The position numbers were made by a program. DNA of 18,168 nucleotides from a virus (lineage: Duplodnaviria; Heunggongvirae; Uroviricota; Caudoviricetes), in IMG/VR virus record IMGVR_UViG_2740892218_000008. One strand, 5' to 3'. Shown here in pieces: positions 10,701 to 13,700 of the stretch. Numbering within the stretch: position 1 is the first letter of the stretch; every line of letters begins with the position of its first letter.

Positions 10701-13700
10701 TGTGCCATTTGTTAATTTTCCTATATTGATATGGAGTTATAGCGGCATACCCAGTGGATTTGCCGCTGATGTTTGCTCACCCGGTTAGAGGTGAAAGGCC
10801 AGAACTGTTAAAGAGCAATTTACTTATGCCGCTTGGCGGTAAGCACTTTCTTGATACTTCAGGGCGCCAGCTGTAACGATTTCCAATCGATAGGCGTCTT
10901 TCTCTGGGATAACTTCTTTCCACTGAGAGACTGCTGCATCGCTAATGCCTAGTGCTTTAGCAACAGCACGCTGGGTTCCGAAGTGGTCAATAACATCTTT
11001 TTTGTACATAGACTCGCTCCGAAATTAAAGGGCACTTAAATTATCTGCTAAAGGAATCTTAAGTCAAGTTTATTTAAGATGTCTTAACTATGAATACACA
11101 ACTGATGGGTGAGCGTATTCGCGCTCGCAGAAAAGAACTCAAGATTAGGCAGGCTGCCCTTGGCAAGATGGTTGGCGTGTCTAATGTTGCTATTTCCCAA
11201 TGGGAGCGATCTGAAACTGAGCCCAATGGCGAAAACCTATTGGCCTTAGCCAAGGCTTTGCAGTGCTCCCCTGATTACCTGTTGAAAGGAGAGGATAGTC
11301 TTTCAAACATTGCCTATCACAGCAGGCATGCTCCAAGAGGTTCGTATCCTCTAATTAGTTGGGTAAGCGCAGGATGTTGGATGGAAGCTGTAGAGCCATA
11401 TCATAGGCGTGCAATAGATAACTGGTACGACACAACGGTAGATTGTTCTGAAGACTCTTTTTGGCTCGACGTTAAAGGCGACTCAATGACTGCCCCGGCA
11501 GGACTGAGTATTCCTGAGGGGATGATTATTCTCGTCGACCCAGAAGTCGAACCACGTAATGGAAAGCTGGTAGTCGCCAAACTTGAAGGAGAAAACGAGG
11601 CGACATTCAAAAAGTTAGTTATTGATGCCGGTAGAAAATTCCTGAAACCACTCAATCCACAATACCCAATGATTGAAATCAATGGGAACTGTAAAATCAT
11701 TGGCGTTGTCGTTGATGCCAAGCTAGCAAACCTTCCTTAAGGGGCTTTCGCCCCTTTTTTATTTCCCGTTAAAAATCAAAGACAAACTAAATTCACGCCC
11801 ATAAAATTAAGTTTTCTTCAAAAATACAGTTGACCTACAAATTAAGAAGTCTTAAATTTAAGCCATCAGCAGGACGCTGGAAGCCAAACGGAACAGATTG
11901 GCAGGCTCTTTAACATCGACGAACTCTCAACCTAACCGTTGAGACCAGAACTTGAGTGGTTTTGGGGATGGCGCGAATTGCAGCTGCAAGACAGCGATCG
12001 AGAAGATAAGCACCTCGACGCGTCATGCGCCAAAGCCACTTAAAGGAGACCATCATGGTAACCATAGTCTGGAAAGAATCCAAAGGTACAGCAAAAAGCC
12101 GCTACAAAGCTCGCAGAGCAGAACTTATTGCCGAGCGACGAAGTAATGAAGCACTGGCGCGAAAAATTGCGCTAAAGCTCTCTGGTTGCGTCAGAGCAGA
12201 CAAAGCAGCATCACTGGGAAGCCTTTGCTACAAGAAGAAAGAAGAATTCGTTCGAAAAAATAGAAGTATTTATTACAAGGATTCAAACCCATTAGGAAAC
12301 AAAATACATGCAGTCCAAAAAATAAAATTGTACAGTAAACCACCGTACGGTGCTTATTGAGTATGCTTATGGTGAAAAAGACTATTTATGTTAATCCTGA
12401 CCGCGGACAAAACAGAAAAGTATCTGATAGAGGCCTTACATCTCGAGACAGGAGGAGAATAGCGAGATGGGAAAAGAGGATAGCATATGCATTAAAAAAC
12501 GGTGTAACACCTGGATTTAATGCTATAGATGACGGTCCTGAATATAAGATTAATGAAGACCCAATGGACAAAGTTGACAAAGCATTAGCAACACCATTTC
12601 CTCGCGATGTTGAAAAAATTGAAGATGAAAAATATGAGGATGTAATGCACAGAGTTGTTAACCACGCTCACCAACGAAATCCAAATAAAAAATGGTCATA
12701 GCCCACTTCGATGGTTTTTTTTATTGTCTGAACTAACCGAATTTATTACAGCAAGCCACGCAGTGAAATGGGTGTGACTTGTGTTGGTCGCCAGAAAATG
12801 AAATTAGGCAGCAAACCACTTATTTGAGGTGATATATGGAAGAACAGGCAAATAAGATTCTCATAGAACTATTGCAAAAAGCCAGTAATGGAATAGACAC
12901 GGCTGTCTCATTTATCCAGGCACAGATTCCTGATGTTGTTCATCAGTTGCTGCTATGGAATATGGTTGACAGTCTGATTAAAACATTAATAGCCATTTTA
13001 ACAATCCCGCTGGTTTTCTGGTTTATGAAGAAACAGTACCAAAAAGTTGAAATTGGTAAGTTCGATGATGAAGGATGGTCATGGGATAAGGGGAAGACTA
13101 AATACAAACCGACTATGATTTGGGAAAGTAACGGTGAGATTAGTTTTCTAATCTTACCATTAGCTGCAGTTTTTGTTCTGTGGGTAAATTTTATTATTGC
13201 TGTAGCAATCAATATGACTTGGTTAAAAATTTGGCTGGCCCCAAAGCTTTACCTTATCGAATATGCAGCATCATTGGTTAAGTAATTTTAGGCCGCATAG
13301 TCGGCCTTTATTTTTGGCATAAACAACAGAATAAACACTGCACTGTGTATTCATTCCAACGAGTGAATACACGGAGCAATGTCGCTCGTAACTAAACAGG
13401 AGCCGACTTGTTCTGATTATTGGAAATCTTCTTTGCCCTCTAATGTGAGGGCGATTTTTTATCTATGAGGATATGAATAGATGTCAAACATCAAAAAATA
13501 CATCATTGATTACGACTGGAAAGCATCAATAGAAATTGAAATCGACCATGACGTAATGACAGAGGAAAAACTTCACCAGATTAATAATTTCTGGTCAGAC
13601 TCTGAATACCGACTCAATAAACACGGCTCTGTATTAAATGCTGTATTAATCATGCTGGCGCAACATGCTCTGCTTATAGCAATTTCAAGCGACTTAAATG

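What the first reader, a model, noticed from the sequence alone, without database searches (positions are those of the whole stretch)
10776..12360. Three-way mosaic control region: P22-type c2/cro/operators, phi21-type N and nut sites, lambda-type replication and Red genes
Repressor, Cro and the 18-bp operators match P22, while the N arginine-rich motif (GTAKSRYKARRAELIAERR) and both boxB hairpins (loop CUAACC) match phage 21. O, P, ren, gam, bet, exo, kil, cIII and xis are essentially lambda. This is a clean illustration of modular exchange at module boundaries, and N/nut specificity here is decoupled from immunity specificity.
Basis: partly seen in the sequence, partly recalled or inferred. 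Interest (0 to 1): 0.4.

Follow-up and report, generated by a model that had tools for sequence, protein, structure and literature searches.

The report
Ordinary phage 21 immunity region
This stretch is the long-known immunity and early-control region of coliphage 21 (repressor, Cro, operators, N and nut sites as one block) inside a lambda-like prophage, with an HK022-type nun gene added behind N; it is an already described arrangement, not a new three-way mosaic.

Summary
The three-way origin is not supported.

- **One block from phage 21.** Window 8429-12277 (ren, P, O, cII, nutR, cro, OR, cI, OL, nutL and the first two thirds of N) aligns with phage 21 (OL657228) as a single collinear block at 96.7% identity.
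- **Proteins.** The repressor is 215/216 and Cro 61/61 identical to phage 21, against 202/216 and 60/61 for P22.
- **P22 match.** P22 DNA matches only 10806-11922, at 83%. The match ends between boxA and boxB on both sides.
- **Conclusion on the mosaic.** [quoted passage not shown] is phage 21's own architecture, and that of the laboratory hybrid lambda imm21. N/nut specificity is not newly decoupled from immunity here.
- **Prevalence.** The control region covers at least 80% of its length in 438 of 5426 complete E. coli genomes.

The real difference from phage 21 is a 473-bp HK022-like segment. It replaces the N 3' end with a variant, adds nun (109/110 identical to HK022 Nun), and leaves a remnant of the 21-type N 3' end downstream. 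This form is already annotated in phages mEp235 and mEpX1; the same DNA is in Kapi1, where the genes are labelled hypothetical. The nutL-to-remnant stretch occurs in 211 of those genomes.

Verdict: already known, low interest.

The parts
10777..10794 (-). nutR boxB hairpin (TCACCTCTAACCGGGTGA), loop CUAACC
   Evidence: Identical to the nutR stem-loop annotated in phage 21 OL657228. Folds as a 6-bp stem with a 6-nt loop.
10809..10816 (-). boxA-R (GCTCTTTA)
   Evidence: Identical to phage 21 boxA-R and conserved in P22. PMC3177189 states that imm21 BoxA equals E. coli BoxA.
10824..11009 (-). cro (61 aa)
   Evidence: 61/61 identical to phage 21 Cro, 60/61 to P22 Cro.
11024..11089 (.). Right operator region: three 18-19 bp operators (11024-41, 11046-64, 11072-89) overlapping PR (-35 TTGACT at 11067-11062, -10 GATAAT at 11045-11040, minus strand)
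   Evidence: Positions transferred from the phage 21 annotation. Palindrome scan, promoter scan. The cro-proximal operator carries a change (central AACA to GGCA) absent from the five references compared.
11090..11740 (+). cI repressor (216 aa, LexA-like, P22 C2 type)
   Evidence: 215/216 identical to phage 21 and to mEp235, 202/216 to P22 C2, 39% to lambda cI.
11741..11764 (+). Intrinsic terminator after cI
   Evidence: Identical to the terminator annotated in phage 21. Also found by the terminator scan.
11776..11857 (.). Left operator region: OL3 11776-93, OL2 11805-22, OL1 11840-57, with PL (-35 TTGACC at 11830-35, -10 TAAATT at 11853-58)
   Evidence: All three are identical to phage 21. 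Promoter scan. OL1 and OL2 are found by the palindrome scan.
11905..11912 (+). boxA-L (GCTCTTTA)
   Evidence: Identical to phage 21. The P22 homology ends about 10 nt downstream of it.
11925..11944 (+). nutL boxB hairpin (TCTCAACCTAACCGTTGAGA), loop CUAACC
   Evidence: Identical to phage 21 nutL. Folds as a 7-bp stem with a 6-nt loop.
12055..12360 (+). N antiterminator, 101 aa: residues 1-57 are phage 21 type (ARM plus the adjacent region), the C-terminal part is a variant type shared with mEp235
   Evidence: RBS AGGAG at 12044-48. Residues 8-29 are identical to PDB 1NYB. 97/101 identical to mEp235 N, 76/98 to phage 21 N. Matches PHROG 271, N-like.
12243..12707 (+). HK022-like segment: variant N 3' end plus nun
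   Evidence: 96.3% identical to HK022 over 465 bp. Alignment.
12363..12701 (+). nun (112 aa), a Nun transcription-arrest/termination factor
   Evidence: 109/110 identical to HK022 Nun. PDB 6ALG at E=2.5e-71, and ARM identical to 1HJI. PHROG 5632.
12741..12827 (+). Remnant of the 21-type N 3' end (IYYSKPRSEMGVTCVGRQKMKLGSKPLI*)
   Evidence: Window 12735-12844 is 97.3% identical to phage 21. Alignments. RefSeq marks the equivalent stretch as an incomplete 'regulator' pseudogene in E. coli MP1.
10412..10708 (-). cII (98 aa). Its 3' end holds the right junction between imm21-specific and lambda-like DNA (lambda homology ends at 10473)
   Evidence: 90% identical to phage 21, 92% to HK022, 36% to lambda. 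Pfam Phage_CII. Junction.
8429..10473 (-). Lambda-type replication module: ren, P, O with four ori iterons (9947-10030)
   Evidence: 95.8% identical to lambda, and inside the single phage 21 block. O is 298/299 identical to both. Iterons.
13297..16982 (+). Lambda/21/434-type PL-operon genes: ea10, cIII, kil, gam, bet, exo and small ORFs
   Evidence: 97.4% identical to lambda, 96.3% to phage 21 (its block runs 13297-17282), 97.7% to 434 (its block starts at 13321). Protein identities.

Best explanation
The region is a natural copy of the phage 21 immunity/early-control module (imm21) in a lambdoid prophage whose neighbouring replication and Red genes are the lambda type that phage 21 itself carries.

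**How it works (inferred from near-identity to studied systems).**
- In the lysogen, the LexA-like repressor binds the 18-bp operators at OR and OL and shuts off PR and PL.
- After repressor loss, PL and PR transcripts carry boxA (GCUCUUUA) followed by a boxB hairpin with loop CUAACC.
- N, made from the PL transcript, binds boxB through its arginine-rich motif. With the host Nus factors it makes RNA polymerase read through downstream terminators. Leftward this gives nun, orf149, ea10, cIII, kil, gam, bet, exo, xis and int. Rightward it gives cII, O, P, ren, the nin genes and Q.
- Cro binds the same operators to turn down early transcription.

**The P22 resemblance.** It is the old homology between phage 21 imm and P22 immC, which stops between boxA and boxB on each side.

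**The one structural difference from phage 21.** An HK022-like segment supplies a variant N C-terminus and the nun gene. Nun most likely lets the lysogen exclude phages with lambda-type nut sites. The prophage's own 21-type nut sites would not be affected.
For: - **Single block.** One collinear blastn block with phage 21 spans window 8429-12277 at 96.7%, and further blocks cover 12735-12844 and 13297-17282. P22 matches only 10806-11922, at 83.2%.
- **Phage database.** Megablast of 10700-12400 gives phage 21, lambda imm21 and DE3 at 97.7% over 10700-12277 in one piece, and mEp235 and Kapi1 at 98.5-98.6% over the whole query.
- **Proteins.** cI is 215/216 and Cro 61/61 identical to phage 21.
- **Sites.** Every annotated phage 21 site is identical in sequence, except two of the OR operators. 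This covers boxA-L/R, nutL/R, the three OL operators, the cI-proximal OR operator, the cI terminator and the N RBS.
- **Phage 21 context.** The annotated phage 21 genome has lambda-type O, P, ren, four iterons, ea10, cIII, kil, gam, bet and exo around this immunity region (genome paper PMC9119081).
- **Solved structures.** The N ARM is identical to the phage 21 N peptide solved with its boxB (PDB 1NYB). Nun matches PDB 6ALG and 1HJI.
- **No lambda-type boxB.** None is found in the window, even with 2 mismatches allowed.
- **Prevalence.** The region covers at least 80% of its length in 438 of 5426 complete E. coli genomes. The nutL-N-nun-remnant form does so in 211. It is joined to unrelated replication and recombination modules in E. 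coli MP1 and GPEC859.
Against: - Nothing argues against the identification.
- Function is inferred from sequence identity. No expression or binding data exist for this copy.
- The cro-proximal operator has central-base changes absent from phage 21, mEp235, P22 and two E. coli prophages. Their effect is unknown.
- The hybrid N C-terminus is only about 78% identical overall to phage 21 N. Its function here rests on the existence of plaque-forming phage mEp235, which has a 97/101-identical N.
- The consensus scan found no sigma-70-like promoter just upstream of nun. Prophage expression of nun therefore rests on 96% identity to HK022 and on my recollection of King et al. 2000. That paper is cited in PMC5386594, but I could not read it.
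Confidence: 0.93

Rival explanations
1. One reading: a recombinant assembled from three donors. P22 supplied c2/cro/operators, phage 21 supplied N and the nut sites, and lambda supplied replication and Red genes. N/nut specificity would then have been newly separated from immunity specificity.
For: - C2 and Cro are 94% and 98% identical to P22 at the protein level.
- The P22 DNA homology ends just before boxB on both sides. So relative to P22, the N/boxB unit really is a different module.
Against: - Phage 21 has the same repressor, Cro, operators, N and nut sites contiguously. It matches at 97.7% DNA identity, against 83% for P22.
- No change in identity to phage 21 is seen at the supposed P22/21 junctions: 0-5 mismatches per 100 bp across 10501-12200.
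- Phage 21 also has the lambda-type flanks.
Confidence: 0.03
2. The sequence is a laboratory construct or contaminant, such as lambda imm21 or the DE3 prophage of BL21(DE3). These carry imm21 in a lambda backbone.
For: Lambda imm21, lambda h434 imm21 and DE3 match 10700-12277 at 97.6-97.7%. They also match the lambda-type int/xis end of the window.
Against: - They cover only 49-55% of the window.
- The window has the nun segment, orf149 in place of ral, a 434-like Q/LpxR/Dam block and four tRNA genes, all absent from those constructs.
- Identity is about 97%, not about 100%.
Confidence: 0.02
3. The module is a decaying prophage remnant. The segment inserted into N would have crippled antitermination, so the control region no longer drives a lytic programme.
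For: - The 21-type N 3' end is displaced and left as a remnant.
- cIII carries a premature stop, giving 46 instead of 54 aa.
- The terminator after nun and the cro-proximal operator carry changes absent from the references compared.
Against: - The N ORF is intact at 101 aa with its RBS. It is 97/101 identical to N of mEp235, a phage deposited as a complete genome.
- The variant C-terminus keeps the IYY...QKIKL.SKP pattern shared by lambda and phage 21 N.
- All neighbouring genes checked are full-length and 95-100% identical to functional homologues.
Confidence: 0.1

Closest known systems
Immunity region of coliphage 21 (imm21), as in phage 21 OL657228, lambda imm21 OM418625 and DE3
   Same: - Same genes and sites in the same order: cII, tR1, nutR, cro, OR, cI, terminator, OL, PL, boxA-L, nutL, N.
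- 97.7% DNA identity over 10700-12277.
- cI 215/216, Cro 61/61, and N residues 1-57 identical.
- Same lambda-type O/P/ren and Red genes on either side.
   Different: - The N 3' end is replaced by a variant, nun is added, and a remnant of the 21-type N 3' end lies downstream.
- orf149 sits where phage 21 has ral.
- int/xis are lambda type, not phage 21 type (Xis 30% identical to phage 21).
- Two OR operators carry small changes.
Immunity regions of phages mEp235 (JQ182731) and vB_EcoP_Kapi1 (MT813197)
   Same: They match 10700-12400 in full at 98.5-98.6%. This includes the hybrid N (97/101 to mEp235), nun (111/112 to mEp235) and the N remnant. mEp235 matches 10372-12828 at 97.8%.
   Different: - The flanks are unrelated. 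mEp235 has a DnaB-type helicase replication module and Erf/Rad52-type recombination genes.
- Neither has the operator changes seen here; this was checked directly in mEp235 and in the E. coli MP1 chromosome.
Salmonella phage P22 immC (c2, cro, OR/OL)
   Same: - Homologous repressor (202/216) and Cro (60/61).
- The same 18-bp operator type and boxA.
- OL1 is identical.
- Shared operator type was reported by Poteete et al. 1980 (reference listed in PMC1151598). That the two phages share repressor specificity is from my own knowledge.
   Different: - Only 83% DNA identity, confined to 10806-11922.
- P22 has different boxB hairpins.
- Gene 24 replaces N (26/68 aligned residues identical).
- A different c1 (27% identical) and P22-type replication genes 18/12.
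HK022 nun locus
   Same: - Nun is 109/110 identical.
- The 120 nt upstream of nun, which are the variant N 3' end, are also present in HK022.
- 96.3% identity over 12243-12707.
   Different: - The HK022 locus shown lists no N gene between cI and nun. The phage uses put RNA for antitermination (PMC8632103).
- Here nun follows an intact N gene with 21-type nut sites.
- The HK022 repressor is unrelated (30% identical).

Membership tests
Phage 21-type immunity region (imm21) | Repressor and Cro of phage 21 sequence type | tested here: met
   cI 215/216 and Cro 61/61 identical to OL657228.
Phage 21-type immunity region (imm21) | Three OR and three OL 18-bp operators of the 21/P22 type, overlapping PR and PL | tested here: met
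   The three OL operators and the cI-proximal OR operator are identical to phage 21. The other two OR operators differ at 2-3 bases each. Five of the six are the only 0-1-mismatch matches to the palindrome in the window. PR and PL were found by the scan.
Phage 21-type immunity region (imm21) | N with the phage 21 arginine-rich motif, and boxB hairpins with loop CUAACC preceded by boxA GCUCUUUA at nutL and nutR | tested here: met
   The ARM is identical to PDB 1NYB. boxA and boxB are identical to the phage 21 annotation. Hairpins are predicted by folding.
Phage 21-type immunity region (imm21) | All of the above contiguous and collinear with phage 21 | tested here: met
   A single 3852-column blastn block covers 8429-12277. 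Mismatch density is 0-5 per 100 bp across 10501-12200.
Phage 21-type immunity region (imm21) | Immunity phenotype: the lysogen is immune to phage 21 / lambda imm21 | not testable with these tools
   Needs plating of lambda imm21 on a lysogen.
P22 immC plus P22 antitermination system | P22 gene 24 antiterminator and P22-type boxB (GACAA-type loops) | tested here: not met
   N is 26/68 identical to gp24. The boxB sequences differ and the P22 homology stops at boxA.
P22 immC plus P22 antitermination system | c2/cro DNA closest to P22 | tested here: not met
   83.2% identical to P22, against 97.7% to phage 21.
Lambda-type replication module | O and P proteins of lambda type, with four O-binding iterons inside O | tested here: met
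   O 298/299 and P 229/233 identical to lambda. Four iterons lie at 9947-10030, with 0.04 expected by chance.
HK022 Nun family | N-terminal arginine-rich motif that binds lambda boxB, and the C-terminal arrest segment (H98, K106, K107, W108 in HK022 numbering) | tested here: met
   Identical to PDB 6ALG at all but one of 109 positions, including the ...NHAHQRNPNKKWS end. The ARM is identical to 1HJI. Residue roles are taken from PMC5386594.
HK022 Nun family | Expressed in the lysogen and excludes phages with lambda-type nut sites | not testable with these tools
   No consensus promoter was found upstream of nun. The upstream 120 nt are conserved with HK022. Needs 5'-RACE and plating tests.

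The most novel reading that the evidence does not exclude
The only feature not already textbook is the HK022-type segment inside the N gene. It creates a hybrid N: a phage 21 ARM joined to a variant polymerase-contacting C-terminus. Its last ~120 nt would double as the promoter region of nun. An N21/nut21-dependent prophage could then constitutively exclude phages with lambda-type nut sites without harming itself. HK022 would be a descendant of such an N-nun phage that later lost the 5' part of N. Separately, the central-base change in the cro-proximal operator could retune the switch. None of this is excluded, but the N-nun arrangement is already annotated in mEp235 and mEpX1 and is common in E. 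coli.
Probability: 0.4. Interest if true: 0.2.

Novelty: already known. Interest (0 to 1): 0.08.

Why it matters
It matters little. The region is a good teaching example of lambdoid modularity, but the combination was defined genetically in the 1960s-70s as imm21 and is fully sequenced and annotated (PMC9119081). The useful outcome is a correction: a P22-like repressor beside a phage 21 N is not evidence of a new recombinant, because phage 21 and P22 share their repressor/operator module. The nun segment inside N is a modest point of interest for how exclusion genes ride along with immunity modules.

Tried and rejected
- **Source genome.** I looked for one genome that explains the whole window. 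No phage record and no complete E. coli genome covers 80% or more of it (best: 64% for phage 434, 70% for E. coli). The window as a whole is therefore its own mosaic of known modules.
- **Promoter for nun.** The sigma-70 scan of 10300-13500 found PR, PL and a few others, but nothing just upstream of nun. The paper on the HK022 nun promoters (King et al. 2000, PMC94296) is not held, so P_Nun could not be placed.
- **Literature.** Searches found no paper discussing N and nun together in one phage. The statement that Nun does not act at phage 21 nut sites rests on my knowledge of Robert et al. 1987, not on a text I could read.
- **Rfam.** It has no family for nut, boxB or oop that scored here. 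Only the cIII thermoregulator and four tRNAs were reported.
- **Failed script.** The first Python run returned nothing because all loci were stored in one FASTA file. It was repeated correctly.
- **Target-site duplication.** I considered that the 10-bp direct repeat ATTTATTACA flanking the nun segment marks a transposition-like insertion. I rejected this as the preferred reading. Both copies lie at the homologous I-Y-Y codons of two N 3' ends, one variant and one 21-type. That fits recombination between two N genes or microhomology joining.
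Full report
**Layout of the window.**
The window is a lambdoid early region in the reverse of the usual lambda orientation.
- The + strand carries the PL operon: cI 11090-11740, N 12055-12360, a 112-aa ORF at 12363-12701, orf149, ea10, cIII, kil, gam, bet, exo, xis and int.
- The - strand carries the PR operon: cro 10824-11009, cII 10412-10708, O, P, ren, the nin genes and a Q gene.
- The finding's coordinates (10776-12360) run from the nutR hairpin to the stop codon of N.

**Checking the observation.**
- *Repressor and Cro.* They are 202/216 and 60/61 identical to P22 C2 and Cro.
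- *Operators.* A scan for the palindrome ANTNAAG-N4-CTTNANT finds its only 0- and 1-mismatch matches at 11024, 11047, 11072, 11805 and 11840. All are in the two intergenic control regions.
- *N.* Residues 8-29 (ESKGTAKSRYKARRAELIAERR) are identical to the phage 21 N peptide of PDB 1NYB.
- *boxB hairpins.* TCTCAACCTAACCGTTGAGA (11925-11944, +) and TCACCTCTAACCGGGTGA (10777-10794, -) fold with the hexaloop CUAACC. Each is preceded by boxA GCTCTTTA.
- *Lambda-like genes.* O, P, ren, gam, bet, exo and ea10 are 95-100% identical to lambda and Xis is 70/72. Kil differs from lambda at 2 of 47 residues. cIII is identical over the 46 residues it retains. Four lambda-type iterons lie at 9947-10030.

**What it is.**
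The decisive comparison is with phage 21 itself.
- *Phage database.* Megablast of 10700-12400 returns phage 21, lambda imm21 and DE3 at 97.7% over 10700-12277 in one piece. Phages mEp235 and Kapi1 match the whole query at 98.5-98.6%. P22 and its Salmonella relatives match only the middle of the query at 83.3%.
- *Reference loci.* With blastn, phage 21 aligns to window 8429-12277 as one 3.85-kb collinear block at 96.7%. It aligns again at 12735-12844 and 13297-17282. Lambda aligns at 8429-10473 and 13297-16982. P22 aligns only at 10806-11922.
- *Proteins.* cI is 215/216 and Cro 61/61 identical to phage 21.
- *Mismatch density.* It stays at 0-5 per 100 bp from 10501 to 12200, with no step at the supposed P22/21 boundaries.
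- *Sites.* All annotated phage 21 sites are identical in sequence when transferred to the window, apart from two OR operators. This covers boxA-L/R, nutL/R, the three OL operators, the cI-proximal OR operator, the cI terminator and the N RBS.
- *Phage 21 flanks.* The annotated phage 21 genome shows the lambda-type O, P, ren, ori iterons, ea10, cIII, kil, gam, bet and exo on either side of this immunity region (genome announcement PMC9119081).

The "three-way mosaic" is therefore phage 21's own architecture. With lambda int/xis added, it is that of the classical hybrid lambda imm21.

**Where the P22 resemblance comes from.**
Alignments of the two nut regions show window, phage 21 and mEp235 essentially identical. 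P22 is homologous from boxA-R through cro, OR, c2 and OL to boxA-L. It diverges completely at boxB on both sides. So the repressor/operator/boxA unit is shared between phage 21 and P22, and the N/boxB unit is not.
- This is old knowledge. [quoted passage not shown]
- The comparison of the lambda, phage 21 and P22 antitermination determinants (Franklin 1985) is cited in PMC9074901.
- The content of these two papers is from my own knowledge.
- In the phage database, E. coli P22-like phages (N7, JEP4, CUS-3, Gally, IME10) match through N at 83-87%. Salmonella phages match only up to boxA. The repressor-to-N21 linkage is therefore the norm in E. coli phages, not an exception.

**The real difference from phage 21.**
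Identity to phage 21 decays after about 12225 and stops at 12277. HK022 then matches 12243-12707 at 96.3%.
- *Hybrid N.* In the alignment, the N reading frame continues into this segment and ends 27 codons later (...IYYKDSNPLGNKIHAVQKIKLYSKPPYGAY). This C-terminus keeps the IYY...QKIKL.SKP pattern of lambda and phage 21 N.
- *nun.* Two nucleotides after the N stop begins nun. Its product is 109/110 identical to HK022 Nun and identical at all but one of 109 positions to the chain in PDB 6ALG, including the ARM and the ...NPNKKWS end.
- *Terminator.* A weakened terminator follows nun.
- *Remnant.* The 21-type N 3' end resumes at 12741 as an untranslated remnant (IYYSKPRSEMGVTCVGRQKMKLGSKPLI*).
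- *Direct repeat.* The 473-bp unit lies between two copies of ATTTATTACA (12268-77 and 12741-50). These are the homologous I-Y-Y codons of the two N 3' ends.
- *Likely origin.* I read this as recombination between a 21-type N and a variant N-nun locus: homologous on the left, and short-homology or illegitimate on the right. This is inference.
- *HK022.* It retains the same ~120 nt of variant N 3' end upstream of nun, but the locus shown lists no N gene between cI and nun.
- *Prior description.* The N-nun-remnant form is annotated in mEp235 and mEpX1. The same DNA is in Kapi1, where the ORFs are labelled hypothetical. The form occurs at 80% or more coverage in 211 of 5426 complete E. coli genomes. 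In E. coli MP1 and GPEC859 it sits beside quite different replication and recombination genes.

**How it most likely works.**

| Step | Basis |
|---|---|
| PR (TTGACT-16-GATAAT, minus strand 11067-11040) and PL (TTGACC-17-TAAATT, 11830-11858) overlap the operators | Shown by sequence |
| boxA plus boxB lie downstream of each promoter | Shown by sequence |
| N has an RBS | Shown by sequence |
| Terminators lie after cI (11739-56), after nun, and at 13290 and 13433 | Shown by sequence (the one after nun) |
| Repressor binding shuts off PR and PL | Inferred from near-identity to studied proteins |
| N bound to boxB, with Nus factors at boxA, gives terminator read-through | Inferred; imm21 BoxA equals E. 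coli BoxA according to PMC3177189 |
| Cro turns down early transcription | Inferred |

For Nun, the HK022 protein binds lambda boxB through its ARM and arrests RNA polymerase through its C-terminus (PMC5386594). The window contains no lambda-type boxB, even with two mismatches allowed. Nun should therefore not act on its own phage. That Nun spares phage 21 and P22 nut sites is from my memory of Robert et al. 1987. Expression of nun in the lysogen is inferred from the conserved upstream 120 nt. The promoter scan found nothing there, and the relevant paper could not be read.

**Rival explanations.**
- *Fresh P22 x 21 x lambda recombinant.* Contradicted by the single phage 21 block and by the 83% against 97.7% identities.
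- *Laboratory lambda imm21 or DE3 origin.* Contradicted by 49-55% coverage and by the nun, orf149, 434-like and tRNA segments.
- *Decayed module.* Possible but unlikely. N is intact and 97/101 identical to N of phage mEp235.

**Novelty and score.**
The combination is already known and common: 438 of 5426 complete E. coli genomes carry the control region at 80% or more coverage. The finding is an ordinary instance of imm21. Interest is low.

Noticed in passing
window 12243-12827: An HK022-like segment inside the N gene comprises a variant N 3' end, nun (12363-12701) and a weakened terminator. It is 473 bp between two copies of ATTTATTACA (12268-77 and 12741-50) and is followed by a remnant of the 21-type N 3' end (12741-12827). 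HK022 itself keeps about 120 nt of the variant N 3' end upstream of nun.
   Followed up: yes
window 11024-11049: The cro-proximal operator has central bases GGCA where phage 21, mEp235, P22 and two E. coli prophages have AACA. The left edge of the middle operator is TGCT, against CACC or TACT in the others. These changes are absent from all five references compared. Their effect on repressor/Cro affinity is unknown.
   Followed up: partly
L001 3325-3390 (phage 21 OL657228 34906-34971): The GenBank record labels the operator next to cro as OR3 and gives two operators the label OR2. By lambda convention the cro-proximal site, which overlaps the PR -10/+1, would be OR1. This looks like a labelling slip in the record.
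   Followed up: partly
window 13922-14062: cIII ends after 46 aa because of a TCA-to-TAA change, whereas lambda and phage 21 have 54 aa. The kil start region nearby also differs (MDKKL against MDQTL). The Rfam cIII thermoregulator (Lambda_thermo) is intact at 13909-13967.
   Followed up: partly
window 12836-13285: orf149 matches PHROG 3054 (unknown function) and has no Pfam hit. Its relative in phage HF4s is annotated as a TM helix-containing protein. It occupies the place where phage 21 and lambda have ral. Its RBS and first three codons are shared with the phage 21 sequence downstream of N.
   Followed up: partly
window 1575-1884 (-): A cluster of four tRNA genes (Gly-tcc, Thr-tgt, Arg-tct, Met-cat) lies downstream of the Q gene, in a stretch (290-2484) that mostly does not match 434, phage 21 or lambda (only a weak 197-bp 434 match at 2079-2275).
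   Followed up: no
window 2485-7428: A block 96.9% identical to phage 434 contains a Q82-type Q (2949-3722), the lipid A deacylase LpxR moron (4111-5070), a 5' remnant of lambda Q, the NinI phosphatase, NinG and a Dam-family methyltransferase (6963-7448).
   Followed up: partly
window 7429-8428: A NinB variant (7418-7864) and two small ORFs of unknown function (7821-8198, PHROG 343; 8216-8422, PHROG 1165) lie in a stretch that does not match phage 21, lambda, 434 or P22 at the DNA level. Only its last ~145 bp match mEp235.
   Followed up: no
window 10401-10500: The 3' end of cII (the cII/oop overlap) is a patch of higher divergence from phage 21, with 23 mismatches in 100 bp. cII overall is closer to HK022 and mEp235 (92-94% protein identity) than to phage 21 (90%).
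   Followed up: partly
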